Assembly: GCA_947482345.1 (NCBI GenBank)
Contig: CANKJN010000006.1
Location: 1-54,945 of the forward strand
Origin: Spartobacteria bacterium
Lineage (GTDB): Bacteria > Verrucomicrobiota > Verrucomicrobiia > Chthoniobacterales > UBA6821
Direction: 5' to 3'
Length of the DNA: 54,945 bases
In this document: positions 1,902 through 49,977 of the stretch, piece by piece
Layout of the letters: the number at the start of each line of letters is the position of its first letter
How positions within the stretch are numbered: the stretch's first letter is position 1
Program-made: the position numbers and the translations under genes
Notes under the pieces: generated by a model
Seen by the model: the letters and a program-made list of their open reading frames with translations, nothing else
What the model was told of the DNA's origin: nothing
Databases searched by the model: none

Positions 1902-3515
1902 TTAATCGGAAGATGCCGATGGCAGGAGGGGGAGACCTAGCTCTGCCAAGAATTCGTTGTGCTTCGCCGTTGCCTTATGGATGGCTTCCTCGATTTTTAC
2001 CAACTCGCCGTGCGTTGCCTCTAGGTTGATCTCAGGTTGGGCCTCCGCTGTGCTGATGTAGCGGGAGATGTTGAGGTTGAAGTCATGCTTCTCGATCTCT
2101 GCCATCTCCACCCGACGGGAGTAGCGGGGCTCCTCAGTACGGCTCTGGTAGGTCTCGATAATCTTCGCGATATCCTCGTCACGCAGGCGGTTCTGGCGTT
2201 TGCCTTTCACGAAGTGCTCGGCGGCGTTGATGAAAAGCACGTCGTCGGGCTTCTTGCATTTCTTGAGCACGAGGATGCAGACGGGGATTCCGGTGGAGTA
2301 GAAGAGATTGGCTGGCAGGCCGATGACGGTATCGATGTGGCCGTCCTTGAGCAGTTTGGTGCGGATGCGTTCCTCGGCTCCGCCACGGAAGAGCACGCCG
2401 TGCGGCAGGATGATGGCCATCACGCCTTCGTCTTTGAGGTAGTGGAAGCCGTGCAACAGGAAGGCGAAGTCAGCGGCGGACTTGGGGGCGAGGCCGTGGC
2501 TTTTGAAGCGCACGTCGTCGGCCAGCGCGTCGGTGGGTTCCCAACGAAGGCTGAAGGGAGCATTGGCCACGATGGCGTCGAAACTCGGCTTCTTGGCCGG
2601 GTTCTGCTCCCGCATCATGTCCCATTCGTTGAGAAGGGTGTCGCCGTGGAAGATCTCAAACTCCGAGTCCTTCACCCCGTGCAGCAGCATGTTCATGCGG
2701 GCCAGGTTGTAGGTGGTGATGTTTTTCTCCTGGCCGAAGATCTTGCCGATGGTGCCGCCGGCCTTGTTCATCCTTTTGCGGACATTGAGAATCAGCGAGC
2801 CGGACCCGCAGGCGAAGTCCAGCACACTTTCCAGGCGTTTCTTGAGGCCGGTCTTCGGTTCCTGGCTGTCCAGCGTGACGATGGCGGAGAGGATATCGGA
2901 CATCTGTTGCGGGGTGTAAAACTCGCCAGCCTTCTTGCCGGACCCCGCGGCAAACTGACCGATCAGGTATTCATAGGCATCGCCCAGAGCGTCGATGTCC
3001 GTGGAGAAATCAGCCAATCCCTCGGCGATCTTCTGGATGATGGTGCAGAGCTTGGCATTCCGATCCGCATAGGTCTTGCCTAGCTTGGGGGAACTCAGGT
3101 CGATCTCCGAGAACAGGCCCTGGAAGGTGCTCTCAAAGGATTCTGTCTCGATGTATTTGAAGCCCGCTTGCAGCGTGTTCAGCAGCTCCGCATTCTGGGT
3201 GCGGGCCTGGTTGGCGATGCTGTTCCAGAGGTGTGCGGGCTGGATGACGTAATGCACCTTACGGCGCATCTGCTTTTCGAACTCCGGGATGTCGTCCACG
3301 TTGTTCGCATACCAGAGCGCCAGAGGCACCTTGCGGGTGTCGTCGCCCACTTCGGGGTAATCCCTCCCCAGTTCCTTCTTCGCTGCCGTCTCATAGTTGT
3401 CGGAGAGGTAGCGCAGGAAGAGGAAGGAGAGCATGTAGTCACGGAAGTCATCCGCATCCATCGCCCCGCGTAGTTGGTCGGCGATGCTCCAAAGGGTATT
3501 GCCCAGTTGAGTCAT
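1902..3515 (-). CDS. hsdM: Type I restriction-modification methyltransferase subunit M
   Basis: LWSIADQLRG N-terminus, GEFYTP, motif I DFACGSGSL, motif IV variant NAPF, LPHGVLFRG. Confidence 0.97.
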   Translation of the reverse strand: MTQLGNTLWSIADQLRGAMDADDFRDYMLSFLFLRYLSDNYETAAKKELGRDYPEVGDDTRKVPLALWYANNVDDIPEFEKQMRRKVHYVIQPAHLWNSIANQARTQNAELLNTLQAGFKYIETESFESTFQGLFSEIDLSSPKLGKTYADRNAKLCTIIQKIAEGLADFSTDIDALGDAYEYLIGQFAAGSGKKAGEFYTPQQMSDILSAIVTLDSQEPKTGLKKRLESVLDFACGSGSLILNVRKRMNKAGGTIGKIFGQEKNITTYNLARMNMLLHGVKDSEFEIFHGDTLLNEWDMMREQNPAKKPSFDAIVANAPFSLRWEPTDALADDVRFKSHGLAPKSAADFAFLLHGFHYLKDEGVMAIILPHGVLFRGGAEERIRTKLLKDGHIDTVIGLPANLFYSTGIPVCILVLKKCKKPDDVLFINAAEHFVKGKRQNRLRDEDIAKIIETYQSRTEEPRYSRRVEMAEIEKHDFNLNISRYISTAEAQPEINLEATHGELVKIEEAIHKATAKHNEFLAELGLPLLPSASSD

Positions 3516-3553
3516 AGAATTGAGAAGTGAGAATTTTGAAGTGAGAAAGTCAT
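3512..3553 (-). other. 13-codon bridging mini-ORF (MTFSLQNSHFSIL) encoded by a repeat arm
   Basis: ATG overlaps the four-helix-bundle stop (ATGA) and its TGA overlaps the hsdM ATG (ATGA); translation not shown. Confidence 0.45.
3516..3549. repeat. 7-nt periodic arm D (TGAGAAG family)
   Basis: agaat-tgagaag-tgagaat-tttgaag-tgagaaa; 3524-3547 matches 4939-4962 at 23/24; inverted relative to 3910-3943 and 4984-5010. Confidence 0.85.
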
Positions 3554-3909
3554 GGAGATTTCAGTTTTTTGACGATGGTTGTGAGGATGGCGACAAGTTG
3601 ATTCGCCTCGTCGAGGAGGGGTGTGAGTTGCCGTTCTGGGAGAATATCCGCAGCGAGGAGGAGGCGCAGCCAATAGTGGGTTTCGCGGGCTTCTTTGAGT
3701 GAAATAGAGACTTTGGAAAGAAAATCGGCGCGGCTTTGTCCACCCTTGGATTCTTCCAGATTGGCACCGACTGAAGTGCCGGAACGCAATAGCTGATTTG
3801 CCAAAGTCCGCGACACTCCCGGTTTCTCGTCCAACACTTGACACAGCTTTATTACCCGCACCGCAAAGGTAAAGGCACGTTCTGCAATTTCCTGTGGCTC
3901 CTCACTCAT
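3550..3909 (-). CDS. Four helix bundle protein (TIGR02436 / 23S rRNA IVP / bAvd-like family)
   Basis: QLLRSGTSVGANLEE...SRADFLSKVSISLKEARETHYWLRLL family signature, 119 aa. Confidence 0.93.
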   Translation of the reverse strand: MSEEPQEIAERAFTFAVRVIKLCQVLDEKPGVSRTLANQLLRSGTSVGANLEESKGGQSRADFLSKVSISLKEARETHYWLRLLLAADILPERQLTPLLDEANQLVAILTTIVKKLKSP

Positions 3910-3943
3910 TTTTCTAAATTCTCACTTCTCACCTCTCACTTCT
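3910..3943. repeat. 7-nt periodic arm C (CTTCTCA family)
   Basis: ttttctaaattctcacttctcacctctcacttct, inverted partner of arm D across the four helix bundle gene. Confidence 0.85.
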
Positions 3944-4937
3944 TCCGTTTCTTGAGTTTGGTTTCCAGTGCTTTGAGGTCGGCCTCATCCTGTTGATCGG
4001 CTTCGATGGCCTCGCGATTTTTGCGGTCTAGGTCGAACTTGATATAGAGTTTTCCGGTGCGCTCTTCCATCTGCTCATTGCTGATGGAACCCGCGTGCGT
4101 GAGCAGAGGGAAGCCGTTGGAGGAGATGATCTGATCCACATTCTCCCTCCAGAAGGCCATGCGCGTCTCCCGCTTGCTCTTGGCCCTCAGTTCGGCGGTT
4201 TCCAGGAAGATGACCACCAATCGGTTCAGGTTGTCGATCTCGTCCTCCGTCAGGTAGTTCTTGGCCACGAGGATGTCTGCCTTGCGCACCTTGTCACCCT
4301 TCCAGGCGAACAGGCCGAAATGCGGATCGGCAGTATTGGCCCGGGAGGTGATGAGTTCGGCGGCGGTTTTCCGCGTCACGGCAAAAATGAGCAGGTTCTG
4401 CACCGTTGCGAAAAAGACCTGCGTGGTCTTGTCGCTCTTGTCGTAGTCGCTACTCAGGGCAAAGAGGTCACGCACCTTCTGGTAGAAACGCTTCTCCGAG
4501 GCCCGGATGTCCCGGATGCGCTCCAGCATCTCGTCGAAGTAATCCGGGCGGCCATCAGGGTTCTTCAGACGCTCATCATCCATCGCGAAGCCCTTGATCA
4601 GGAATTCCTTCAGGACCGTGGAGGCCCAGCGGCGGAACTGCACGCCACGAGGCGAGCGCACCCGGTAGCCCACGGCCAGAATGGCGTCCAGATTATAAAG
4701 GGTGACGGAACGCTGCACCTCGCGCTCCCCTTCGATTTGAACTACCGAGGAATCCTCGGTAGTTGCCTCCCGGCTCAGTTCCCCATCCTCGAAGATGTTC
4801 TTCAGATGCAGCCCCACATTGTCCGTGCTTACATCAAAGAGCTGGGCCATCTCTCGCCGCGAAAGCCAGACGGTTTGATCCTTGGGCCGCAGCTTGATCT
4901 GGCTGCGCCCGTCTTCGGTGGTGTAGAGAACAATCAT
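3936..4937 (-). CDS. RhuM-family (virulence RhuM) protein
   Basis: IVLYTTEDG...YNLDAILAVGYRVRSPRGVQFRRWA...DYFDEMLERIRDIRASEKRFYQKV; family common in type I R-M loci. Confidence 0.92.
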   Translation of the reverse strand: MIVLYTTEDGRSQIKLRPKDQTVWLSRREMAQLFDVSTDNVGLHLKNIFEDGELSREATTEDSSVVQIEGEREVQRSVTLYNLDAILAVGYRVRSPRGVQFRRWASTVLKEFLIKGFAMDDERLKNPDGRPDYFDEMLERIRDIRASEKRFYQKVRDLFALSSDYDKSDKTTQVFFATVQNLLIFAVTRKTAAELITSRANTADPHFGLFAWKGDKVRKADILVAKNYLTEDEIDNLNRLVVIFLETAELRAKSKRETRMAFWRENVDQIISSNGFPLLTHAGSISNEQMEERTGKLYIKFDLDRKNREAIEADQQDEADLKALETKLKKRKK

Positions 4938-5010
4938 TGAAGTGAGAATTCTGAAGTGAGAAGCGAGAAATGACTGAGGTGACTTTTCTACGATCTCACT
5001 TCTCTCTTCC
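4938..5010. repeat. Cargo-free inverted pair of 7-nt periodic arms (B 4938-4970, A 4984-5010)
   Basis: tgaag-tgagaat-tctgaag-tgagaag-cgagaaa followed by ttttctacgatctcacttctctcttcc. Confidence 0.8.
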
Positions 5011-5052
5011 TCGAAAGGTTTTACCCAGTTGTTTTTGGTTGGTGGAGGTCAT
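4996..5052 (-). pseudogene. Orphaned hsdM N-terminal stub (MTSTNQKQLGKTFRGREK)
   Basis: QKQLGKT resembles the usual HsdM start; nt 5014-5031 match hsdM 3492-3509 at 15/18. Confidence 0.7.
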
Positions 5053-5085
5053 GCAGATCGGTAGCTGAGCAGGTTAATAAGAAAA

Positions 5086-7311
5086 TTATGGAGCTACGCC
5101 TATCACAGTGCACATGGAGGTGTAGTGAGGGAGGTCTTTCGCCTTTAGGGCTTCAATGACTTTTTTGACGGTGTTCTGCGCATTGGAAATAAAGTTTGGT
5201 TGCTGGAGAGCACGACTCCATCCCTGCAAGTGTGAAGCATCGTTAGAAAACTTCTGGATTTCTGTCTGATCAACATCCGCATCAAATAGAAGGTCGAGTT
5301 TCTTGTACCACTCTGGGACACAGGGCTTTTTGAAACCAAGGTATGCTTCGAGGAACTTACGCAGCAGGTTGGGTGAGGTATAAGCCTCATGAAGCGTTGG
5401 CGCTTGTGATGAGGAGAACTGGTGCAACTGGTCAAACACAAACTGGTATTCAGATTTGTATTTCCGAAGGAGCTTTGGAGTGTCTTCCAGCGTAGAGTGC
5501 CATAGGTGGGTGGGCTCATCTCGGTATCGCCGAGTGTAGTAAGAGCACGCATCGCCGCGATTGGTATAGTTTGGCTTCAAAAACCAATCATCCTTTAACA
5601 GTGTGTAAAGCTCACTGTTGTGCGTGGAGACAAAAATCTGTAAACACGGCTCCAGCTTTTTTGTGATCAACGCATAAATGGCGTAGATGTGGTTCGAATC
5701 GAGACTGGAAATGGGGTCGTCGATGAAGACAATCGTTTGATTTAGTGACGCGCCGTTGTTCTCAAGTGTAGCAAGGAAATAGGCAAAGGTGATGGCGGTC
5801 TTTTCGCCTTCGCTAAGGTTGCTGGCTGGTGCCCCATCGCGCCGAAACTCAAATGAGCCTCCGGGGATTTCAGCAACTGAGATGTTGTTGTCCGGCAGAA
5901 GAAACTGAACCGTCTCGTTGATCTTTTGCGCTGCGATGGATTGCTGCTGAATCTTCGCCTCGATTGCCGCCTTCTTGCCTGCAATCCTATTTAGTGAATC
6001 TTGCGCTGCATTGACCTGATCCATGGCGGCTTCAATTGCCGATTCCCTGCCTAGGACATTGTTGTCCTTGTAAAAGCTCGCAGCATGATGCTTATCGACT
6101 GCCCCTTTAGCAGCTCTTTTCTCAACGTCGATCTGTGTGCGCTTTTGATTGTGGTCTGTGACAAGCGCGTTGATGTCCAACACGAGCTGCTCAATTTCAG
6201 AGGCGCGGCCGGTAGCGACAACGCAAGCGAGCGGAGTTTCCAGGCTTAACTGCTTCAGCTTAGCAAGCTGTGTGAGTTCACCGACCGCCGCCCTTGCCCA
6301 AGTGGCCCATTCTTCGATCCTAGTCTTCAACGCAACAAACTGCGCCCGTAGGTCTGGAACAAAGTCACGTTCATCGGGAAGCTTAATGACCAGCTCTGCT
6401 TCTTCAAGTGTGGCGACTTGAGAAGCCACTTCTGCGGTTAAATCTTCGTAAGCTTCGGAGAAGTGCTTTTGCAGGGCGGTGAGACGCTCCTCAGGAATTT
6501 CTGATCCACAGAATTCGCACTGCGACGAACCCACATGATGCGACAGGCCTGTTCGTATCCATGATTCTAGGTCACGATTTTCTTTCAGTTTGGTTATGGC
6601 CTCGTTCGATGCGGTCTTCTGCATTACCGCTTGCAAGGTTAACCGCAAAGCGTCTGGATTCTCTGCTGGAGCGTTCACAGTATTGATGTTAGCCCATTGT
6701 TCTGTGCTGTGGACTAGCGCCACCTTTGCTTGGAGGTCCTTCTCGGTGAGAATAAAAGCGTCTGGCGTCGCTTTGACTCGATCAATTTCAGCTACGAGTT
6801 TGGTGCGGTTATAGGTTCTGTCTCCTGTTAAGGTGCCAAAAGACCTGGCATGATTTGTCCCTAACGAATCAAGTTCGTTTTGTAGCCGCCGGTGGTTCTC
6901 GGAGAGCCGTTCTTTGATACCTACAATTTTCGTCTCGTGCTCATTCAAACGACCAATTCGATTGCGCAGGTGGATGGTATTGCCGCCGACAATGAATACT
7001 GAAGGGGCTTGATGTTCCTGTAGAAAGTTGCGCTGAATGAAGTCGCGGTTAAAGACCTTTATGCGCGGAGGATTCGCCAGATTGGCGTGCGTCATTGTAG
7101 CTCCGCCTTGAAGCTCAACCTCGAACTGGCTTCCCTGCCACTGTGCGATTTGGTTTGGTTCAGCAAGAATCTGAAACAGCCGAGACAGCGTGGTTTTTCC
7201 CGAGTAATTCCAGCCGTAGATAAGGTTGCGCTTGGCAAAGGGAGTTGTGCCGCCCCATTGAAATTGGCGGTAGTTCCCGAAGTTCGTGAGGCGGTTGATT
7301 CTGCAGATCAT
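5086..7311 (-). CDS. AAA_13 ABC-type ATPase, RloC-like anticodon nuclease candidate
   Basis: Walker A GWNYSGKTT, coiled coil with zinc-hook CEFC, signature LSEGEK, Walker B IDDPISSLD, STHN, HEPN-like C-terminus NLLRKFLEAYL...NDASH; located between hsdS and hsdM. Confidence 0.85.
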   Translation of the reverse strand: MICRINRLTNFGNYRQFQWGGTTPFAKRNLIYGWNYSGKTTLSRLFQILAEPNQIAQWQGSQFEVELQGGATMTHANLANPPRIKVFNRDFIQRNFLQEHQAPSVFIVGGNTIHLRNRIGRLNEHETKIVGIKERLSENHRRLQNELDSLGTNHARSFGTLTGDRTYNRTKLVAEIDRVKATPDAFILTEKDLQAKVALVHSTEQWANINTVNAPAENPDALRLTLQAVMQKTASNEAITKLKENRDLESWIRTGLSHHVGSSQCEFCGSEIPEERLTALQKHFSEAYEDLTAEVASQVATLEEAELVIKLPDERDFVPDLRAQFVALKTRIEEWATWARAAVGELTQLAKLKQLSLETPLACVVATGRASEIEQLVLDINALVTDHNQKRTQIDVEKRAAKGAVDKHHAASFYKDNNVLGRESAIEAAMDQVNAAQDSLNRIAGKKAAIEAKIQQQSIAAQKINETVQFLLPDNNISVAEIPGGSFEFRRDGAPASNLSEGEKTAITFAYFLATLENNGASLNQTIVFIDDPISSLDSNHIYAIYALITKKLEPCLQIFVSTHNSELYTLLKDDWFLKPNYTNRGDACSYYTRRYRDEPTHLWHSTLEDTPKLLRKYKSEYQFVFDQLHQFSSSQAPTLHEAYTSPNLLRKFLEAYLGFKKPCVPEWYKKLDLLFDADVDQTEIQKFSNDASHLQGWSRALQQPNFISNAQNTVKKVIEALKAKDLPHYTSMCTVIGVAP

Positions 7312-7314
7312 GAT

Positions 7315-8637
7315 TCAATTATCCTCTGGGGATGGGAAAAGCTGCTGCATCAGGCCTTTCTTGTGGGTCTTGAGGGCTTCGTGCTTTTGGGTTTGCGCGG
7401 CGATGAGGTCGTCGAGGCTGGTGAGGCAGTCGGCGATGCGTTGTTGTTCGGCTATTCTGGGACAGTGGATCTCAAACTCCTTTATGCCCTGAGTCGTTAG
7501 GTTCGTGAAAACTCCTCCGTGTGTTGCTCCGCGTTCAAACTGGTTGCGAAGCGTACTCAATGTATGGAATAGAAAATCCTTATCCGCTTGCAACTCGTCT
7601 ATATCCACGAGTGCCAAGAAACCGTCGTGAATACAGGCGTCGACTGCCAGAAACGATACGATTCCAACCACCCCCGAGCAGACGATCGTTAGAGTTCCGG
7701 CTGGGCAAGGTCGGCTCATTGTTGCGCCTTCCTCGGTGAGTGAATCAATGCGAGGCGTAACCCATTTTCCATCTCGTGTGACATCCTGCACCATCAGTCG
7801 AGGAACAGGACCGCCAAAGAAACGAGGATCACCCTGTGGTCGAGGGCTAGAGCCTCTGATAACACGACTGATTTCATCCAATCGCACCCGCACCCACTCC
7901 CCGGCGTTTTGGAATTCGGGGAAGCGGAGGCGGGGTTGGGTTTCGCCTTCGCGGGGGAAAAGCTGCTGCATCAGCCCTTTTTTATGGGTCTTGAGCGCGT
8001 CCACTTTCCGCGCTTGCGCGGCCATCAGCTGGTCCACCGAACTCAGGCACTCGGCGATTTTTTGTTGTTCGGGTTCGTCTGGCCGAGGTGCGGCGGTGAA
8101 GAGGAATTGGGAGATAGAGATATTAAATCGCCCCGCTCTGGCACCTTCGTTTACTAAGCCACGCAGAGCCGCCTCATGGCTTCCAGATTCGAAATACCAT
8201 TCCCAAAAGACCGGGTTCTCGTCCGAGTGGAAGCGGAAGCACTTGTAGATCGGCGAAACGATTCCACCTTCATATTTGGACAGTCGTTTGATGGTGCCAA
8301 AGGTCGAGGCCTTTGTGGTTCTGTCGTTATAGACGAAGTCATTGCGGAGAAGTTTGAGGTATCTTTCCGCACTATCTCCCGCGATCTTTTTGCCGAAATA
8401 GTCGCTTTGAAGGACAAGGCCATGTTCGCCCGAGAGGCTCAATATATTATCTGCATCGCCCGTTACTGCCCTGTCAGATACGGGCCGGGCAATCTTCTGG
8501 AGTTGTGCCACCTTCCATCCTGCCAACTTCCGAAACTCCGGGAACCGCAGCTTCGGCACCAGCGCGGGCGTTGCCTCTTCCTTTTGGGTCTCACACGAAG
8601 ACACGAAGGCACGAAGGTTTTTGGATTTCTTAATCAT
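7315..8637 (-). CDS. hsdS: Type I restriction-modification specificity subunit S
   Basis: PKLRFPEF/PRLRFPEF and two EQQ.IA.CL.S.D...LKTHKKGLMQQLFP conserved blocks separating two TRDs; ATG 8637 preceded by GAGGG. Confidence 0.95.
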   Translation of the reverse strand: MIKKSKNLRAFVSSCETQKEEATPALVPKLRFPEFRKLAGWKVAQLQKIARPVSDRAVTGDADNILSLSGEHGLVLQSDYFGKKIAGDSAERYLKLLRNDFVYNDRTTKASTFGTIKRLSKYEGGIVSPIYKCFRFHSDENPVFWEWYFESGSHEAALRGLVNEGARAGRFNISISQFLFTAAPRPDEPEQQKIAECLSSVDQLMAAQARKVDALKTHKKGLMQQLFPREGETQPRLRFPEFQNAGEWVRVRLDEISRVIRGSSPRPQGDPRFFGGPVPRLMVQDVTRDGKWVTPRIDSLTEEGATMSRPCPAGTLTIVCSGVVGIVSFLAVDACIHDGFLALVDIDELQADKDFLFHTLSTLRNQFERGATHGGVFTNLTTQGIKEFEIHCPRIAEQQRIADCLTSLDDLIAAQTQKHEALKTHKKGLMQQLFPSPEDN

Positions 8638-8775
8638 GACATTCCCTCTTCTTCTTCGCGGCTTCGTGGCTTCGCGTGCGATTTTCCCCGAAACTCGGGA
8701 AACCATAGCTTCGGCACCAGCGCGGGCGTTGCCTCTTCCTTTTGGGTCTCACACGAAGACACGAAGGCACGAAGG
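8530..8775. repeat. Direct repeat with 158-bp period duplicating the hsdS 5' region
   Basis: 8549-8617 identical to 8707-8775 (69 bp); similarity extends to 8530/8688. Confidence 0.95.
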
Positions 8776-9278
8776 GGTTTTGTTCTGGAACTCATTGCAA
8801 TCCTCCTTCTTCTTCGTGGCTTCGTGCCTTCGTGTGAGTTTCCTGATTCAGTCTGAGTCGCGAGTTTTCAAATGACTGCGGCCCATTGAGGATGCGTTTG
8901 CAGCCGTCTTTGAAGGTGGATGCCCCGAAATTGATGAGAAGTCCCAACGGGAGACCGAGCAGACGAAGGTAGGTGAGAACTTGTTTGGAATGGACTGGAA
9001 GCAGATTCTCAACCGACTTCAGTTCGATCAAAAGTCGGTCTTCGACGATGATGTCGGCACGAAACCCTTCTTCAAAAGTCATTCCCATGAGCCGAATCGG
9101 CACGGGCACCTGCCGTTTCACAGTCAGACCTTGATCGGCAAGCATCTTTGCCAGAACCACCTCATAAACCGTTTCCAGTAAACCCGGCCCAGCCTCAACA
9201 TGCAGCTTGTAGCCACAGTCCACCACAATAGCGGATAACTCTTCCACATCCCTTCGCGCCTTCGTGTCTTCGTGTGAG
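8590..9278. repeat. Five 28-bp arms of 9-nt periodic repeat (CACGAAGRC family) in both orientations
   Basis: 8590-8617 and 8748-8775 (ctcacacgaagacacgaaggcacgaagg); inverted copies 8653-8680, 8811-8838, 9251-9278. Confidence 0.92.
8634..8795 (-). pseudogene. 53-aa duplicated hsdS N-terminal stub
   Basis: MSSRTKPLRAFVSSCETQKEEATPALVPKLWFPEFRGKSHAKPRSREEEEGMS; ATGA overlaps with GxxExxY stop and with hsdS start; absent from the ORF track. Confidence 0.75.
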
Positions 9279-9283
9279 TTCAA
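8792..9283 (-). CDS. GxxExxY protein (PD-(D/E)XK nuclease-like, TIGR04256)
   Basis: GPGLLETVY motif, RADIIVEDRLLIELKS, QVLTYLRL...GLLINFG; both termini encoded by repeat arms; TTG start overlaps hsdR stop. Confidence 0.93.
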   Translation of the reverse strand: MNSHEDTKARRDVEELSAIVVDCGYKLHVEAGPGLLETVYEVVLAKMLADQGLTVKRQVPVPIRLMGMTFEEGFRADIIVEDRLLIELKSVENLLPVHSKQVLTYLRLLGLPLGLLINFGASTFKDGCKRILNGPQSFENSRLRLNQETHTKARSHEEEGGLQ

Positions 9284-12200
9284 GATTCGTAAGCGCTGAG
9301 TCCGGAAATGTCGCGGCCACCGGCGCGTTTGGTGAGGAGGGGGTGGAGATCGGCCATGAGGGCGAGTTCGGCCTGGGTGCGGGCTTTCCAGGCGAGGTCG
9401 AGCGGCTCCAAAAGTTGGGTGAGCTGCTCTCCATCAAAGATCATGCGGTCAAGGATGCCCTCCACGAAGGCCTGCAAGGCGGCCGTGCCCAATCCGTGCT
9501 TACTGGCGATGGAGGCGAGTTCCTTAGCGTTCTTCTCTGCCTTGAAACGGGTGTAGCCGTCGCGGATGGCGGTTTCGCTGAGACCTTCGCCCGCCTGGAG
9601 CGTGCCGATGTATTCGGCGATGTCGTCGCGCTCGTTCATGAACTTGGCATCGGCGCTGATGAGGCCGATGAGTTCCTCGCGGGTCATCTTGGACTTGCCG
9701 GGCTTCTGCTCTGAGAAGCGGGCGATGAGGCCCATGATGTAGTCGTAGTCGATGACGGCGGAGGCAAAGAGGACGAACTCGAAGTCGATCTGATCCACGG
9801 GATCCTCTGAGTCTTGTTTCTCTCCAGTTTTACCCTGCTGCTCTTTGAGCTTCTTAGCGGTCTCCAGATACTGACCTTTGAAACCGCGCAGGTTTTCTTC
9901 CGGCAGTACCTGCGCGATGGCGGATTTGTTCTCCTCGGTGAGGTCGGTGTATTGGTCGAGCTGGGTCTTTAGCCGCTGGACTTCCTTGAAGCGCTCGATG
10001 AAGACGACCTTGGCGGCGTCACCCTTCAGGTTGGGAACGGAGGAAGGTGTGCAGTCGAGTCCCTGGGACTTCATGAAGGCGTCGAGCTTCTGCACCGCAG
10101 TCTCCAGCTTCTGGATAACGACGGGGGCCTTCTCCACGAGCCAGATTTCCCGTGCCTGCTCACTGGACTTCTCCCCGCTAAAGAGGGCAATGGCGGCATC
10201 CACGGAATCCTGCTGCTGGCGGAAGTCGAGGATGTTCCCGTAGGGCTTAGTGCCATTGAGCACGCGGTTGGTACGCGAGAACGCCTGAATCAAGCCGTGG
10301 TGCCGCAGGTTCTTGTCCACGTAGAGCGTGTTCAGGAACTTGGAATCAAAGCCGGTGAGCAACATGTCCACGACGATGGTGATGTCGATCTTGTGGGCGT
10401 GCGGGAAATCAGCGTTGGGCCACTGCTGGTCTTTGATGCGCTTCTGCACATCCTGATAGTAGAGGTCGAACTCGCCGATGCGGTGATTGGTGCCGTAGCG
10501 GACGTTGTAATCGGCAAGGATTACCTTGAGCGCGGCTTTCTTCCCCTCGGGGTCCACCTCATTGTCTGCCTGCTCCTGCGGCAGATCTTCCTGAATCTGC
10601 TTCACATCGGGATTCCCCTCGGCGGGCGGGGAGAAGACGCAGGCGATATTCAGCGGCTTGAACCCGGGATCAGCGGCCTGTTGCTCTTGTTCACGTTGGG
10701 CCTGCATGGTCTTGAACAGAGCATGGTATTCGATGGCGTCGTTGATGGATGAGGTGGCGAGGATGGCATTGAAGCGGCGTCCACCGGTGGCGGCGTCGTG
10801 CTTGGAGAGGATCGCCTCGATGACGGCTTTCTTCGCGATGGCCTCGCCGGGCTTGGGCGGGTTTTTTCCCTCGGGCTTGAAGTAATCGATATGGAAGCGC
10901 AGGACGTTTGCGTCTTCGATGGCGTGGGTGATGGTGTAGGCGTGGAGCTGCTTCTGGAAGAGGTCCGCCGTGGTGCGCATGGAGGCCTGCTCGTCCTCGA
11001 TCTTATGAAGGGAGGCATTGGCATCAAAGATGGGTGTGCCGGTGAAGCCGAAGAGCTGAGCCTTAGGGAAGAACTCTTTGATCGCCTTGTGGTTCTCCCC
11101 GAACTGCGAGCGGTGGCACTCATCGAAGATGAAGACGATGCGTTTGTCGCTGAGCGAAGCCAACATCTCCTTGTAGGTGGGCTGGTCGTTCTTCTTCCGC
11201 TGCTGGTTGCGCTTGCTGCTCTCATCCAGCGCGAGGCCGAGCTTCTGGATGGTGGTGACGATGACTTTGTCCGCGTAGTCCTCAGACAGGAGGCGACGGA
11301 CGAGGGCGGCGGTGTTGGTATTCTCCTCGACGCAGCCCTCCTGGAAGCGGTTGAACTCCTCGCGCGTCTGGCGGTCGAGGTCCTTGCGATCCACGACGAA
11401 GACGCATTTGTGGATGTGGTCGTTCTCCTTGAGCAGGGTGGAGGCCTTGAAGGAGGTGAGTGTTTTGCCGCTGCCGGTGGTGTGCCAGATGAAGCCGTTG
11501 CCGTTGTCCTCGTCGATGCACTTCACCAGGTGCTGTACGGCATAGACCTGATAGGGCCGCATGATCATGAGCTTCTGCTCTCCGGCGAGCAGCACCATGT
11601 AGCGGCTGATGGTCCTGCCGAGGTCGCACTTCTTCAGGAAGCACGCCGCGAACTCGTCGAGGTGGGTGATCTTGTGGTTGTCCTCGGCGGCGAACTCGTA
11701 GATGGGCAGGAAGCGCTCGTCGGCATTGAAGGCAAAGTGGCGGGCGTTGTTGTTAGCGAAGTAGTAGGTGCGGTCGCGGTTGCTGACGATGAAGAGCTGC
11801 ATGAAGCAGAGCAGCGTCTTCGCGTAGCCGTTGCCGGGGTCATTCTTGTAGTCGACGATCTGCTCCATGGCCCGGCGGGGATTCACCCCAAGGGTCTTGA
11901 GCTCGATCTGGACACAGGGTACGCCGTTGATGAGTAGGATCACATCATAACGATGGTGGCTGTAGTCGGTATTGATACGGAGCTGGTGGACGACCTCGAA
12001 GTGGTTTTTGCACCAGTCCTTGAGGTTCACCAGGGAGTAGTTCAGCGGCGTGCCATCGTCGCGAGTGAAGCTATTGATACTGCGCAGGGTCTTGGATGCA
12101 GTGAAGACATCCGATGCAACGATCTCATCGAGCAGGCGGGCAAACTCTGCATCGGTGAGAGTGACGCGATTCAGGGCCTCGAACTTCTCGCGGAAGTTAC

Positions 12201-12351
12201 GCTCCAGCGAGGCCCTGTCTTGAATATCGGACCGGTATTCATATTTCAGGCTCCGGAGTTTTTCGATGAAGGAGTCCTCAATATCTCCCTCGCGGACAAC
12301 AGCTCTTTGCGATGGAGCAGAGAGCCCGTCTGGATAGGTGGAGGAAGTCAT
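9280..12351 (-). CDS. hsdR: Type I restriction endonuclease subunit R
   Basis: RYDVILLING..VQIELK nuclease motif, WHTTGSGKT, DECHRS, FTGTP, MLLTGFD, QAFSRTNR. Confidence 0.97.
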   Translation of the reverse strand: MTSSTYPDGLSAPSQRAVVREGDIEDSFIEKLRSLKYEYRSDIQDRASLERNFREKFEALNRVTLTDAEFARLLDEIVASDVFTASKTLRSINSFTRDDGTPLNYSLVNLKDWCKNHFEVVHQLRINTDYSHHRYDVILLINGVPCVQIELKTLGVNPRRAMEQIVDYKNDPGNGYAKTLLCFMQLFIVSNRDRTYYFANNNARHFAFNADERFLPIYEFAAEDNHKITHLDEFAACFLKKCDLGRTISRYMVLLAGEQKLMIMRPYQVYAVQHLVKCIDEDNGNGFIWHTTGSGKTLTSFKASTLLKENDHIHKCVFVVDRKDLDRQTREEFNRFQEGCVEENTNTAALVRRLLSEDYADKVIVTTIQKLGLALDESSKRNQQRKKNDQPTYKEMLASLSDKRIVFIFDECHRSQFGENHKAIKEFFPKAQLFGFTGTPIFDANASLHKIEDEQASMRTTADLFQKQLHAYTITHAIEDANVLRFHIDYFKPEGKNPPKPGEAIAKKAVIEAILSKHDAATGGRRFNAILATSSINDAIEYHALFKTMQAQREQEQQAADPGFKPLNIACVFSPPAEGNPDVKQIQEDLPQEQADNEVDPEGKKAALKVILADYNVRYGTNHRIGEFDLYYQDVQKRIKDQQWPNADFPHAHKIDITIVVDMLLTGFDSKFLNTLYVDKNLRHHGLIQAFSRTNRVLNGTKPYGNILDFRQQQDSVDAAIALFSGEKSSEQAREIWLVEKAPVVIQKLETAVQKLDAFMKSQGLDCTPSSVPNLKGDAAKVVFIERFKEVQRLKTQLDQYTDLTEENKSAIAQVLPEENLRGFKGQYLETAKKLKEQQGKTGEKQDSEDPVDQIDFEFVLFASAVIDYDYIMGLIARFSEQKPGKSKMTREELIGLISADAKFMNERDDIAEYIGTLQAGEGLSETAIRDGYTRFKAEKNAKELASIASKHGLGTAALQAFVEGILDRMIFDGEQLTQLLEPLDLAWKARTQAELALMADLHPLLTKRAGGRDISGLSAYES

Positions 12352-46703: not shown

Positions 46704-46946
46704 ATGACGCTTGCCGAGATTCAGAAAGAGTTGCCGAATCTTACCTTCTTGGAACGGCAGGAACTGATGGCGGCTTTGATCCATCTTGATCCGCCCCCCG
46801 TCTCCGAGGATGAGAGGGTCATTCTTGAGGCAAGGCTGAAGTATGCCGAGGAGAATCCGGGGCGCGAGATCCCCTTTGAAGAGCTTGAGGCCAGACTCCT
46901 GGAGCGATATCGCCGGCGATCAGATGCTGACATGGAGCCCCACTAG
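46704..46946 (+). CDS. Addiction-module antitoxin-like protein
   Basis: LTFLERQELM...ILEARLKYAEENPGREIPFEELEARL; stop codon falls in the MITE end. Confidence 0.7.
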   Translation: MTLAEIQKELPNLTFLERQELMAALIHLDPPPVSEDERVILEARLKYAEENPGREIPFEELEARLLERYRRRSDADMEPH

Positions 46947-47224
46947 GGAAGCGCTGATTAAATCCCATGAAGGCCGCTGAAGAGCATTTGCTGATTTTTG
47001 AAGGCGCGAGTGCTGGGCGATACCCGCAGCGGTCTCGCCCGAGCGAGCAACGCGGCAAAAATCGACAAATGGCTTCAGCCCTTTGGGTTGCGGGGATAAC
47101 AGGCCGGGGGCTGCGTTGGCTTGGCACTTACAGCCCACTGAGGGGATGCTCGTGCCAAGCCGCCTTGCCCGCGGCCCATTCTTCCCGCAACGGCCTCTAT
47201 GCGATTTAATCAGCGGTTCCTTAG
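46943..47224. mobile_element. 282-bp MITE with IS5-like ends
   Basis: TIRs GGAAGCGCTGATTAAATC / GATTTAATCAGCGGTTCC (17/18) flanked by CTAG and TTAG; no coding capacity. Confidence 0.85.
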
Positions 47225-47829: not shown

Positions 47830-47981
47830 GGGGCGAAGAAGGTTTTTAGACTGAAGGCTGAACCAAGCTTCTGGGAAGGAGCGCGGTAGATCCCGCGCAT
47901 GCGGGACCCAAAGGGCGACACGGCTTCCCGGGAGGAAAGTGGCGTCAATGCTGTTAGGAACTGCAGGGGACATAATTCACC

Positions 47982-49851: not shown

Positions 49852-49977
49852 TCTTTTCCTGAGTTGACGGCACTTTGCTCCCGGCGAGCGGTGCCGCCCT
49901 ACGGGTCCCGCATGCGAGGGATCTTACGCGCCGGGTTCCACCAGCTTGTTTCTTAAGTTCCTGATTAATCCTTTGGA

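What the first reader, a model, noticed from the sequence alone, without database searches (positions are those of the whole stretch)
3512..9283. Candidate undescribed system: cargo cassettes bracketed by periodic inverted-repeat arms that invade gene starts and keep the operon translationally chained
Seen: two unrelated small genes in one operon (four helix bundle, GxxExxY nuclease-like) are each enclosed by inverted arms built from a short period (7 nt TGAGAAG, 9 nt CACGAAGRC). Both regions show the same three extra marks: a duplicated N-terminal stub of the downstream host gene, additional cargo-free arm pairs, and stop/start overlaps through arm-encoded mini-ORFs. No transposase, integrase or reverse transcriptase lies in the cassettes. 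Established: four helix bundle genes were first described inside stem-flanked 23S rRNA intervening sequences, are structurally related to DGR Avd, and both families lack an assigned function. Inference: these are mRNA counterparts of intervening sequences, mobile or RNA-processed units in which the arms form long stems and may be the binding or cleavage sites of the cargo protein. I cannot confirm novelty without a literature search.
Basis: partly seen in the sequence, partly recalled or inferred. Interest (0 to 1): 0.88.

Follow-up and report, generated by a model that had tools for sequence, protein, structure and literature searches.

The report
Small genes bracketed by periodic hairpin arms
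Two small genes of unknown function inside a restriction-modification operon each sit between inverted arms built from short tandem units, the same design as the classical rRNA intervening sequence, and these units come and go between related genomes, which suggests a widespread and largely overlooked kind of mobile cassette.

Summary
The arms are real. The region is a minus-strand type I R-M operon: hsdR, GxxExxY, hsdS, AAA_13, RhuM, 4HB, hsdM. The 4HB gene lies between inverted TGAGAAG heptad arms. The GxxExxY gene lies among five CACGAAGR arms, whose period is 8 nt, not 9.

This is a general trait of both families. Flank inverted repeats scoring 14 or more occur at 25 of 30 and 18 of 30 loci in relatives, and at 55 of 94 and 63 of 91 loci across phyla and metagenomes. 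Random intervals gave 0 of 600 and 4 of 400. 4HB arms are mostly 7-nt periodic and GxxExxY arms 8-9 nt. Each GxxExxY protein clade has its own arm sequence.

Cargo-free and truncated alleles occur at the same junctions in same-genus genomes, and empty hsdR/hsdS joints occur in lake metagenome contigs.

The Coxiella 23S IVS has the same design: a 4HB ORF, a 28-bp stem and tandem heptamers. Cyanobacterial 4HB genes carry STRR-like heptads.

The hsdS stub and the ATGA chaining are local features, not family traits.

My reading is IVS-type mobile cassettes whose arms are probably the ligand of the cargo protein. The mobility mechanism and RNase III cutting are inferred. I found no prior description in the library searched.

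The parts
9280..12351 (-). hsdR, first gene of the host type I R-M operon
   Evidence: TIGR00348 E 6.3e-116. It is 96% identical at protein level to the G012 orthologue.
9250..9278 (-). Arm A1. F orientation, CACGAAGR units, directly after the hsdR stop.
   Evidence: Pairs with 8748-8776 (29 nt, 97%) and with 8590-8625 (36 nt, 89%). It forms the outer 28-bp stem in the RNA fold.
8792..9283 (-). GxxExxY / PDDEXK_3 cargo ORF. The HMM core is 8891-9238. Both ORF ends are arm-encoded.
   Evidence: TIGR04256 E 1.3e-35 and PF13366 E 2.9e-35. D62, E72 and K74 are conserved. The AF2 model has pLDDT 95 and its nearest folds are PD-(D/E)XK nucleases.
8812..8838 (-). Arm A2 (F orientation)
   Evidence: Pairs with 8748-8774 (27 nt, 93%, 37-nt loop). 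It forms a local hairpin in the MFE and in the centroid structure.
8748..8776 (-). Arm A3 (R orientation)
8634..8795 (-). Stub ORF. It starts in the A2/A3 loop, reads through A3, a copy of the hsdS 5' end (8688-8738) and A4, and ends in the A4/A5 loop.
   Evidence: ATGA overlaps at both ends. It lies in the upstream copy of the 154-nt tandem duplication 8688-8841, which is 85% identical to 8530-8683.
8654..8682 (-). Arm A4 (F orientation, degenerate copy)
   Evidence: Direct-repeat family D3, 83% identical to 8812-8840
8590..8625 (-). Arm A5 (R orientation), inside the 5' part of the hsdS reading frame
   Evidence: The hsdS ORF from the ATG at 8637 reads through it.
7315..8637 (-). hsdS. The ATG at 8637 lies in the A4/A5 loop. 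The frame is open back to 8706.
   Evidence: PF01420 E 1.3e-16. A metagenome joint 8583->9293 shows an allele with no cassette.
5086..7311 (-). AAA_13 ATPase, an accessory gene with no arms of its own
   Evidence: PF13166 E 4.2e-121. It is absent from the alleles joined 4928->7322 and 3509->7322.
4985..5009 (-). Arm B1 (F orientation, GAGAAGT units) of a cargo-free hairpin
   Evidence: Pairs 4985-5002 with 4953-4970 (18 nt, 78%, 14-nt loop)
4939..4970 (-). Arm B2 (R orientation), ending 1 nt before the RhuM ATG
   Evidence: Pairs with 3911-3942 (32 nt, 78%) and with 4985-5002
3936..4937 (-). RhuM-family gene, lying between two hairpin units. It is not a cargo.
   Evidence: PF13310 E 4.9e-108
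3911..3943 (-). Arm B3 (F orientation, TGAGAAG heptads). It contains the RhuM stop codon.
   Evidence: Pairs with 3516-3547 (25 nt, 84-88%). The stem is in the MFE structure but not in the centroid, z -2.07.
3550..3909 (-). Four-helix-bundle (23S_rRNA_IVP) cargo gene
   Evidence: TIGR02436 E 6.3e-27, PF05635 E 1.6e-21. PDB 2rld E 4.2e-22.
3512..3553 (-). Arm B4 (R orientation, 3516-3547) together with the 13-codon ORF it encodes. That ORF bridges the 4HB stop to the hsdM start.
1902..3515 (-). hsdM, last gene of the operon
   Evidence: TIGR00497 E 4.2e-118. The G012 orthologue (93% at protein level) has no arms and no 4HB in front of it.

Best explanation
The window holds a type I R-M operon invaded at two places by members of two widespread families of stem-flanked mini-cassettes. 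They are the same kind of element as the classical 23S rRNA intervening sequence.

A cassette has three parts:
- an upstream arm of 3-4 tandem short units, purine-rich on the cargo strand;
- one small ORF;
- the reverse-complement arm downstream.

The ORF is either a four-helix-bundle (Avd-like) protein, with 7-nt units, or a GxxExxY PD-(D/E)XK nuclease, with 8-9-nt units. Each protein lineage carries its own arm sequence.

SHOWN
- The architecture.
- Its strong enrichment around both families across phyla.
- The link between family and unit length.
- The congruence of arm sequence with the protein tree.
- Gain, loss, truncation and replacement at orthologous intergenic junctions.
- Many cargo-free hairpins of the same arm families in the genome.

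INFERRED
(i) The arms are arrays of binding sites for the cassette's own protein, one unit per protomer.
(ii) Spread happens at the DNA level by copying into intergenic sites or into resident arms. For GxxExxY I propose nuclease-initiated, homing-like repair that uses the arms as homology. For 4HB the catalyst is unknown.
(iii) When the cassette is co-transcribed with the host operon, the arms pair into a 25-30-bp stem. RNase III would cut this stem, as shown experimentally for IVS stems, splitting the polycistronic RNA.
(iv) Cassettes decay to cargo-free hairpins, the STRR-like repeats.

The hsdS stub, the tandem hairpin duplication and the ATGA chain in this window are local consequences of insertion into a tightly coupled operon. 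They are not part of the design.
For: WINDOW ANATOMY.

ENRICHMENT (flank inverted-repeat score 14 or more)
- GxxExxY: 25 of 30 in relatives and 55 of 94 across named phyla.
- 4HB: 18 of 30 in relatives and 63 of 91 in metagenome contigs.
- Controls: 0 of 600 and 4 of 400.

UNIT LENGTH
- 4HB: 7 nt in 51, 8 nt in 19 and 9 nt in 3 of 81 arms.
- GxxExxY: 8 nt in 31, 9 nt in 20, 10 nt in 4 and 7 nt in 2 of 80 arms.
- Fisher test 4e-16. The loci are not independent.

ARM MOTIF AND POLARITY
- C[AG]CN[AG]AG occurs twice or more in 40 of 80 GxxExxY upstream arms on the coding strand.
- It does so in 4 of 80 on the other strand and in 0 of 81 4HB arms.
- Upstream arms are purine-rich in 62 of 80 and 57 of 81.

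ARMS FOLLOW THE PROTEIN TREE
- 9 label changes, the minimum for 10 arm families. The 10 of 200 label shuffles that were printed gave 18-22.

UNIT MOVES BETWEEN CONTEXTS
- The same lineage (73-76% amino-acid identity, same arms) lies outside any R-M operon in G014 and G015.

TURNOVER
- Site C11: full cassette in G000, arms only in G012, cargo truncated to residues 2-46 in G005, another arm family in G003.
- Site C90: six genomes, five occupants at two junctions.
- The G012 R-M orthologue has a heptad hairpin and no GxxExxY at hsdR/hsdS, and nothing at hsdM.
- Metagenome joints 8583->9293, 3509->7322 and 4928->7322.

GENOME POPULATION
- About 147 arm sites in 12 families.
- In the table, 8-9-nt families enclose only GxxExxY and 7-nt families only 4HB. 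The 8-nt GTTAAAAR family enclosed no cargo there but flanks a 4HB gene on C24 (L051), in line with the 19 of 81 4HB arms that have 8-nt spacing.

RNA STEM
- z -6.7 for 8585-9285(-).
- RNase III gene present.

IVS PRECEDENT
- PMC4990558 (passages).

CYANOBACTERIA
- Heptad arms around 4HB on Nostoc punctiforme and Anabaena cylindrica plasmids.
- STRR hairpins between operon genes (PMC2670836, passage).
Against: - There is no direct evidence of protein-arm binding, of cleavage, of excision or of any mobility intermediate.
- No RNA data exist for this organism, so the RNase III step rests on analogy only.
- 4HB has no known catalytic activity, so its spread needs a helper that I cannot name.
- Loops of cargo-free hairpins within one arm family are unrelated to one another. 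Most hairpins are therefore not simple deletion derivatives of a cassette.
- One abundant family (ACGCAAMGG, 26 arm sites) and two small ones have no cargo copy in this 93%-complete assembly.
- 39 of 94 and 28 of 91 loci in the wide samples show no arm at score 14.
- The 4HB stem is weak in the ensemble: z -2.07, absent from the centroid.
- Congruence of arms with the protein tree would also follow from plain co-inheritance without recognition.
- Neighbour strands come from a longest-ORF heuristic.
Confidence: 0.6

Rival explanations
1. The periodic hairpins are resident, host-level repeats of the REP/STRR type that exist independently of the genes. 4HB and GxxExxY genes are separate selfish genes that merely prefer to insert into hairpin loops, as IS elements do with REPs. 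On this view arms and cargo are not one unit.
For: - Cargo-free hairpins far outnumber cassettes: 48 periodic pairs with gaps under 200 nt, against 14 cargo genes.
- At site C11 the arms are conserved at 92-94% between G000 and G012, and only the content between them differs.
- Loops are diverse.
- rRNA IVSs sit in helix loops (PMC4990558).
Against: - Arm family follows the cargo protein tree exactly.
- Unit length is specific to the cargo family.
- Arm polarity is fixed relative to the cargo strand, even where the cargo is antisense to the host genes.
- The same protein lineage carries the same arms into unrelated contexts.
Confidence: 0.15
2. The arms are host regulatory structures, such as mRNA stabilisers, insulators or translational couplers. 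They would be kept by selection on the operon, and the small genes would be ordinary operon members.
For: - There is an ATGA chain through arm-encoded ORFs at every junction in the window.
- STRR hairpins have been proposed to stabilise transcripts or couple translation (PMC2670836, passage).
- 86 of 109 cargos with co-directional flanks lie in sense.
Against: - Presence and absence differ between genomes whose flanks are 92-97% identical.
- Different arm families occupy the same junction.
- Some cassettes are antisense.
- Stop/start overlap is not enriched.
- The empty hsdR/hsdS allele is already coupled by an ATGA overlap with no arms at all (read by eye).
Confidence: 0.08
3. The hairpins are REPIN-like elements mobilised in trans by the genome's Y1 (IS200/RAYT-type) transposases. 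The small genes would be passengers.
For: - There are two Y1_Tnp genes in G000, and one is itself flanked by a 32-nt inverted repeat.
- The overall design, a gene flanked by inverted repeats plus dispersed doublets, resembles REPIN-RAYT (abstracts in the listing).
Against: - The repeats flanking the Y1 gene are not periodic and match none of the 12 arm families.
- Two transposases would have to serve 12 or more arm families.
- This does not explain the cargo-specific unit length or the tree congruence.
- Whether the genomes in the wide sample carry Y1 genes was not examined.
Confidence: 0.06
4. The pattern is chance similarity or an assembly artefact of a repeat-rich MAG.
For: The genome is a 125-contig assembly. 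Short periodic repeats can misassemble.
Against: - Controls gave 0 of 600 and 4 of 400.
- The same design occurs in isolate genomes and closed plasmids.
- Contigs of eight DNA runs from two studies hold 91-99% of the stretch's sampled words.
Confidence: 0.01

Closest known systems
23S rRNA intervening sequences (IVS) carrying an S23p/4HB ORF (Coxiella, Leptospira and others)
   Same: - The same protein family is encoded (PF05635).
- The ORF sits in the loop of a stem of about 28 bp formed by terminal inverted repeats.
- The 5' arm is built from tandem heptamers whose copy number varies between strains.
- The ORF is in sense with the host transcript.
- The ORF can decay while the stem stays (PMC4990558, passages read).
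   Different: - Here the host transcript is a protein-coding operon, not rRNA.
- The arms overlap host stop and start codons.
- A second, unrelated cargo family (GxxExxY) has the same design with 8-9-nt units.
- RNase III cutting is shown only for the rRNA elements.
REPIN-RAYT systems
   Same: - A small gene is flanked by inverted copies of a repeat.
- That repeat also occurs as dispersed hairpin doublets in intergenic DNA.
- There is a specific pairing of gene lineage with repeat family (abstracts in the listing; my data).
   Different: - The cargo is not a Y1/HUH transposase.
- The arms are tandem-periodic.
- There are several lineages per genome.
- Distribution is patchy between congeners rather than single-copy and vertical.
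[quoted passage not shown]
   Same: - They are 7-bp tandem repeats that can form hairpins between genes of one operon.
- Their function is unknown (PMC2670836, passage).
- Heptad arrays of this type flank 4HB genes on Nostoc and Anabaena plasmids.
   Different: - STRRs were described as bare repeats. I found no statement linking them to 4HB genes.
- The present genome is not shown to be cyanobacterial.
- That the Nostoc arrays are the classical STRR units is my reading, not a tool result.
Integron gene cassettes with attC
   Same: - They are small, mostly promoterless ORFs.
- The ORF comes with an imperfect inverted repeat conserved in structure more than in sequence.
- They are inserted in the sense of a host transcript. 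(This description is recalled, not from a call.)
   Different: - Here there are arms on both sides, tandem periodicity and no array.
- No integrase or attI was seen in the cassettes. An integrase was not searched for genome-wide.
Free-standing PD-(D/E)XK homing endonuclease genes
   Same: - A small PD-(D/E)XK nuclease sits in a selfish insertion.
- Foldseek lists I-Bth0305I and the R2 endonuclease among weak matches.
   Different: - There is no intron or intein context.
- The matches are weak (E 0.009 or more).
- No target cleavage is known.

Membership tests
TIGR02436 / PF05635 four-helix-bundle (23S rRNA IVS protein) | Profile score above the curated cut-off over the full length | tested here: met
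   94 bits against a cut-off of 24, profile positions 2-109 of 109. Pfam 76.9 bits against 33.8.
TIGR02436 / PF05635 four-helix-bundle (23S rRNA IVS protein) | Conserved motif GxxRxxxSxxxNxxE (as given in PMC3936711) | tested here: met
   R34, S38, N42 and E45 are nearly invariant in 21 sequences. The paper passage was read.
TIGR02436 / PF05635 four-helix-bundle (23S rRNA IVS protein) | Homopentamer of four-helix bundles | not testable with these tools
   The nearest solved chain is 2rld, E 4.2e-22, an entry with 5 chains. No oligomer prediction was run.
TIGR04256 / PF13366 GxxExxY (PDDEXK_3) | Profile score above the curated cut-off, plus the G..E..Y signature | tested here: met
   122.2 bits against a cut-off of 35. 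G19, E22 and Y25 are invariant in 20 sequences.
TIGR04256 / PF13366 GxxExxY (PDDEXK_3) | PD-(D/E)XK catalytic D...E.K and the restriction-endonuclease-like fold | tested here: met
   D62 and K74 are invariant and E72 nearly so. The AF2 model has pLDDT 95. The best Foldseek hits are all PD-(D/E)XK nucleases but weak: Cas4 4ic1, E 0.009, probability 0.97-0.99.
rRNA intervening sequence (IVS) | Inserted in a helix of 23S rRNA | tested here: not met
   The cassettes lie between protein-coding genes of an R-M operon.
rRNA intervening sequence (IVS) | Terminal inverted repeats form a long stem around the ORF, and the 5' arm holds tandem heptamers | tested here: met
   for the 4HB cassette, compared with PMC4990558.
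rRNA intervening sequence (IVS) | Excision from the transcript by RNase III | not testable with these tools
   No RNA run is listed. An rnc gene is present in the genome.
REPIN-RAYT | The flanked gene is a Y1 (HUH) transposase | tested here: not met
   The cargo ORFs match PF05635 and PF13366 only. The two Y1_Tnp genes lie elsewhere.
REPIN-RAYT | The same repeat is dispersed as inverted doublets in the genome | tested here: met
   12 arm families and about 147 arm sites.
Diversity-generating retroelement (Avd role for the 4HB) | Reverse transcriptase with TR/VR next to the Avd-like gene | tested here: not met
   RVT_1 has 0 matches in the genome, which is 93% complete.
Integron cassette | Tyrosine integrase and attI, with a single attC downstream of each ORF | not tested
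   No integrase search was run. Arms lie on both sides of the ORF.
Type I restriction-modification operon (host) | HsdR, HsdS and HsdM encoded together | tested here: met
   TIGR00348, PF01420 and TIGR00497.

The most novel reading that the evidence does not exclude
4HB and GxxExxY proteins are the trans-acting factors of a previously unrecognised, pan-bacterial class of protein-specified hairpin replicators.
- Each protein lineage binds iteron-like units of its own arms: 7 nt per 4HB protomer and 8-9 nt per GxxExxY protomer.
- Each lineage drives the copying of arm pairs, with or without the gene, into intergenic DNA and structured-RNA genes.

One mechanism would then explain three things at once:
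- the rRNA intervening sequences;
- the cyanobacterial STRR repeats, whose function I did not find established;
- the large paralogous expansions of two function-unknown families.
Probability: 0.35. Interest if true: 0.85.

Novelty: new variant of a known kind. Interest (0 to 1): 0.75.

Why it matters
TIGR02436 and TIGR04256 are very common families with no assigned function. Their genes turn up inside operons of every sort, including R-M and CRISPR-Cas loci. PMC3936711 counted 18 inside cas loci.

If these genes are the cargo of IVS-type cassettes with lineage-specific arms, several loose ends are tied together:
- the origin of rRNA intervening sequences;
- the nature of heptamer (STRR) hairpins between operon genes;
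- the odd low-complexity N-termini that annotation gives these proteins and their neighbours.

It would also give testable ligands for both proteins, since each gene sits beside its own candidate binding site. It would flag a source of annotation error, because arms are read as N-terminal extensions, as with hsdS here. It would point to a structured element that may split polycistronic mRNAs.

Tried and rejected
No earlier findings were used.

(2) RNA evidence. No RNA holder is listed for the stretch. Only Logan contigs of DNA runs could be laid, so nothing can be said on expression or cleavage.

(3) 'Stops in all three frames' as a design of heptad arms.
- 17 of 81 4HB upstream arms stop all three frames.
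- The mean number of frames stopped is 1.37, against 1.16 in shuffles.
- GxxExxY arms are if anything depleted, 0.57 against 0.87.
- Rejected.

(4) Translational chaining as a family trait. Rejected.

(5) Stub duplication as a family trait.
- 7 of 152 against 5 of 400.
- Some hits may be extra arm copies.
- Not a hallmark.

(6) The first periodicity measure (autocorrelation 0.6 or more on extended arms) was too strict for GxxExxY arms with mixed 8/9-nt units.
- It called 74 of 80 GxxExxY arms aperiodic.
- I replaced it by the spacing of the most repeated 4-mer.
- Both point the same way.

(7) Arm motifs of the window as a genome-wide repeat. They occur only at this locus in G000.

(8) Cargo-free hairpins as plain deletion derivatives. 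Loops within a family are unrelated. Only one truncated cargo was seen (G005).

(9) PDB sequence search for GxxExxY. No relative with E at or below 0.1.

(10) Literature. Six searches found no paper joining periodic inverted arms to these families outside rRNA.
- Subscription journals and supplements were not visible.
- The curators' comments on the two NCBIfam models could not be read and may mention this.

(11) Rows dropped before counts.
- In the wide samples I kept only profile matches that start at or before profile position 12, end at or after position 95, and have at least 230 nt on both sides.
- This left 94 of 126 matches and 91 of 128.
- The scans stopped at their limit of 120 rows and see only genes that carry the chosen motif.

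(12) The organism's taxonomy was not determined.

Full report
WHAT IS THERE

The stretch 1902-12351 is one minus-strand type I restriction-modification operon. Its genes, in order of transcription:
- hsdR, 12351-9280
- a GxxExxY / PDDEXK_3 gene, 9283-8792 (TIGR04256, E 1.3e-35)
- hsdS, ATG at 8637, ending at 7315
- an AAA_13 ATPase, 7311-5086
- a RhuM-family gene, 4937-3936
- a four-helix-bundle gene, 3909-3550 (TIGR02436, E 6.3e-27; PF05635)
- hsdM, 3515-1902

The repeat finder confirms the arms. On the coding strand the order around GxxExxY is:
- A1 (F, 9278-9250)
- cargo
- A2 (F, 8838-8812)
- A3 (R, 8776-8748)
- a copy of the hsdS 5' end
- A4 (F, 8682-8654)
- A5 (R, 8625-8590)
- hsdS

Around 4HB the order is:
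- B1 (F, 5009-4985)
- B2 (R, 4970-4939)
- RhuM
- B3 (F, 3943-3911)
- 4HB
- B4 (R, 3547-3516)
- hsdM

These arms are built from TGAGAAG heptads.

A 154-nt tandem duplication (8530-8683 and 8688-8841, 85% identical) carries one hairpin plus 51 nt of hsdS at 92% identity.

- the hsdR TGA overlaps a TTG;
- there are three ATGA overlaps on the GxxExxY side;
- a 13-codon ORF lies inside arm B4, with ATGA overlaps to the 4HB stop and to the hsdM start.

A stub of hsdM, RhuM or 4HB does not exist.

IS IT MORE THAN CHANCE, AND IS IT PARTICULAR TO THIS LOCUS?

The window is a whole contig of a 2.36-Mb, 125-contig genome with 59.5% G+C. The exact arm motifs occur nowhere else in it.

The genome has seven further 4HB genes and five further GxxExxY genes. 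Nearly all sit between their own, different, short-period inverted arms.

An unbiased scan of the genome for inverted repeats gave these counts:
- 379 pairs of at least 18 nt and at least 80% complementarity;
- 107 of them internally periodic after overlapping pairs were collapsed;
- 82 of those 107 falling into 12 arm families, with about 147 arm sites.

In the table, families with 8-9-nt units enclose only GxxExxY genes and families with 7-nt units only 4HB genes. The one exception seen is the 8-nt GTTAAAAR family, which enclosed no cargo in that table but flanks the 4HB gene on C24 (L051). Forty-eight periodic pairs are hairpins with loops under 200 nt and no cargo.

Random 345-nt intervals of this genome never reach the flank score of 14 that I used as threshold (0 of 600, maximum 12).

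ACROSS GENOMES

In 20 relatives (12 of the same genus, 8 of the same order):
- 25 of the 30 best GxxExxY loci have flank arms at score 14 or more;
- 18 of the 30 best 4HB loci do.

A motif scan of one genome per species returned 120 stretches from many phyla. These included Flavobacterium, Schlesneria, Erythrobacter, Sphingomonas, Thermomicrobiales, Holophagaceae, Desulfobacteraceae, Kiritimatiellia and Saprospiraceae. Of 94 full-length GxxExxY genes with enough flank, 55 reach score 14 and 65 reach score 13.

A like scan of metagenome contigs for 4HB gave 63 of 91. Random intervals in the same loci gave 4 of 400.

The spacing of the most repeated 4-mer in the arms differs by family:
- 4HB: 7 nt in 51, 8 nt in 19 and 9 nt in 3 of 81 arms;
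- GxxExxY: 8 nt in 31, 9 nt in 20, 10 nt in 4 and 7 nt in 2 of 80 arms;
- Fisher test 4e-16, though kin are not independent.

Further arm properties:
- GxxExxY upstream arms share a unit core, C[AG]CN[AG]AG, on the coding strand. It occurs twice or more in 40 of 80 arms, against 4 of 80 on the reverse strand and 0 of 81 4HB arms.
- The upstream arm is purine-rich on the cargo strand in both families.

On a tree of 31 GxxExxY proteins, the ten arm families need 9 changes, the minimum possible. The 10 of 200 label shuffles that were printed needed 18-22.

So arms and cargo form one oriented, co-inherited unit.

COMING AND GOING

The G012 orthologue of this operon (hsdR 96% and hsdM 93% identical at protein level) differs in these ways:
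- It has no GxxExxY gene.
- At hsdR/hsdS it has a cargo-free hairpin of the heptad family, read through in frame by hsdS.
- It has no arms and no 4HB before hsdM.
- It carries two other small genes in place of AAA_13, RhuM and 4HB.

Contigs from lake metagenomes show three joints:
- 8583->9293, with 32 other letters between. By eye these letters give an hsdR stop overlapping an hsdS ATG with no arms at all.
- 3509->7322.
- 4928->7322.

The sides of these joints are only 30-42 nt and likeness was set at 90, so they come from related strains, not from this genome.

At the C11 site the alleles are:
- G000: F-loop-R-GxxExxY-R.
- G012: the same arms around a 93-nt loop, with flanks 92-94% identical.
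- G005: the F arm, a GxxExxY cut down to residues 2-46, and a decayed R arm.
- G003: a hairpin of another arm family.

At the C90 site two junctions in six genomes hold five different occupants. These include a 4HB gene antisense to the host genes in G012 and G001.

The window's own GxxExxY lineage (73-76% amino-acid identity, same arms) lies in G014 and G015 outside any R-M operon. In G015 it takes the simplest form: upstream stop/ATGA, F arm, cargo, R arm, 16 nt, next ATG.

Where both neighbours run the same way, the cargo is in sense in 86 cases and antisense in 23 (longest-ORF heuristic).

- Cargo-free arm pairs are general.
- Stop/start overlap at the cargo stop is not enriched: 23 of 124 and 27 of 124, against 406 of 1349 long ORFs in the same loci.
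- Stub duplication is rare: 7 of 152 against 5 of 400.
- Arms do not systematically stop all three frames.

The chaining in the window is best read as what survives when a cassette lands in an operon whose genes were already coupled. The empty allele is coupled too.

LINK TO WHAT IS KNOWN

Coxiella 23S IVS (PMC4990558, passages read).
- It encodes the same 4HB family.
- Three tandem heptamers (GACAGAT) precede the ORF, and their number differs between strains.
- RNase III cuts in the stem at the first repeat.
- The ORF is decaying.
- This is the architecture seen here, in another kind of transcript.

Avd relation.
- PF05635 is related to DGR Avd (PMC10053308, passage).
- This genome has no RVT_1 match.

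4HB genes in other operons.
- 4HB genes inside cas operons were noted without mention of arms (PMC3936711, passage).

STRR repeats.
- Cyanobacterial STRR sequences are 7-bp tandem repeats that form hairpins between operon genes. Their function is unknown (PMC2670836, passage).
- By tblastn, 34 plasmid records hold a 4HB relative, 19 of them from Nostoc.
- I looked at three. Nostoc punctiforme pNPUN01 has 38-nt GGTCGGA-type heptad arms (score 26).
- Anabaena cylindrica pANACY.01 has AAGTAAA heptads on both sides, between cas2 and cas1.
- Nostoc 7120 pCC7120alpha has heptads on one side only, next to a transposase.

REPIN-RAYT.
- These systems are the closest analogue for the gene-plus-dispersed-hairpin pattern (abstracts in the listing).
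- The cargo here is not a Y1 transposase.
- The two Y1_Tnp genes of G000 lie elsewhere, with non-periodic repeats.

HOW IT MOST LIKELY WORKS

Shown: an oriented unit of F arm, ORF and R arm. Its arm sequence tracks the protein lineage and its unit length tracks the protein family. It is gained, lost, truncated and replaced at intergenic junctions, and it leaves or accompanies many bare hairpins.

Inferred:
- The units are binding sites for the cassette's own protein. 4HB relatives are pentamers, and GxxExxY keeps D62, E72 and K74 with a confident PD-(D/E)XK fold.
- Spread is at the DNA level. For the nuclease I propose cutting at arms followed by repair from a cassette-bearing copy.
- In a sense transcript the arms pair. 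For 8585-9285(-) the outer stem A1:A5 has 28 bp and the inner hairpin is A2:A3, with z -6.7. The 4HB stem is weaker, z -2.07.
- The resulting stem is a substrate for RNase III, whose gene is present.

I put 0.6 on the classification as IVS-type mobile cassettes with protein-specific arms. I put much less on any single mechanistic step.

NOVELTY

IVS elements and STRR hairpins are known. What I did not find in six literature searches:
- that the IVS design is the general habit of TIGR02436 genes outside rRNA;
- that TIGR04256 genes have a parallel design with longer units;
- that arm sequence follows protein lineage;
- that these units are polymorphic between congeners.

Supplements, subscription journals and the curators' notes on the two models were not visible.

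Hence my rating: a new variant of a known kind, of considerable interest.

Noticed in passing
window 46943-47224, and dozens of places in G000: A non-periodic MITE-like family. Its terminal inverted repeats of about 30 nt (starting GGAAGCGCTGATTAAATC) are spaced about 214 nt apart.
   Followed up: no
window 47881-47948 and 49864-49931: A 68-nt inverted repeat pair (84% complementary), 1915 nt apart. It may mark the ends of an insertion element.
   Followed up: no
window about 1820-1902: The stretch just downstream of hsdM matches many places in G000, G005, G008 and G012 at 83-92%. It is another short dispersed repeat.
   Followed up: no
G000 C70:9280-9609 and C33:2330-2662: Two Y1_Tnp (IS200/RAYT-type) genes. 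The C70 gene lies between 32-nt inverted repeats at 9190-9221 and 10164-10195.
   Followed up: partly
G000, about 26 arm sites, for example C11:7692-7858: The ACGCAAMGG arm family forms units of about 170 nt with partly conserved interiors. It has many copies in G012 as well, but no cargo-bearing copy in this assembly.
   Followed up: partly
window 7334-7451 and 7955-8072: A 118-nt direct repeat (75% identical) inside hsdS, lying after each of the two variable halves of the gene. Metagenome contigs join across the target-recognition halves (7394->7891, 8072->8530), as expected if specificity domains are being swapped.
   Followed up: no
L324 (Anabaena cylindrica pANACY.01) 1195-1542: A 4HB gene lies antisense between cas2 and cas1, with AAGTAAA heptads on both sides. 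Such periodic arms next to cas genes could be mistaken for CRISPR-like repeats.
   Followed up: partly
L325 (Nostoc punctiforme pNPUN01) 1122-1683: A 4HB gene with 38-nt heptad arms sits between a tnsA gene and xisH/xisI genes.
   Followed up: no
L016 (G014:C282), downstream of the GxxExxY gene: Two tandem hairpin units of the same CGCGAAGR arm family follow the cargo, as in the window. Tandem duplication of hairpin units seems to be a trait of this lineage.
   Followed up: partly
G000, for example C64:5815-5979 and C29:7921-8086: A small palindromic element (AACCCGAACTCCGAAGTTGA type, arms about 125 nt apart) often lies near periodic hairpins or nested in their loops.
   Followed up: no
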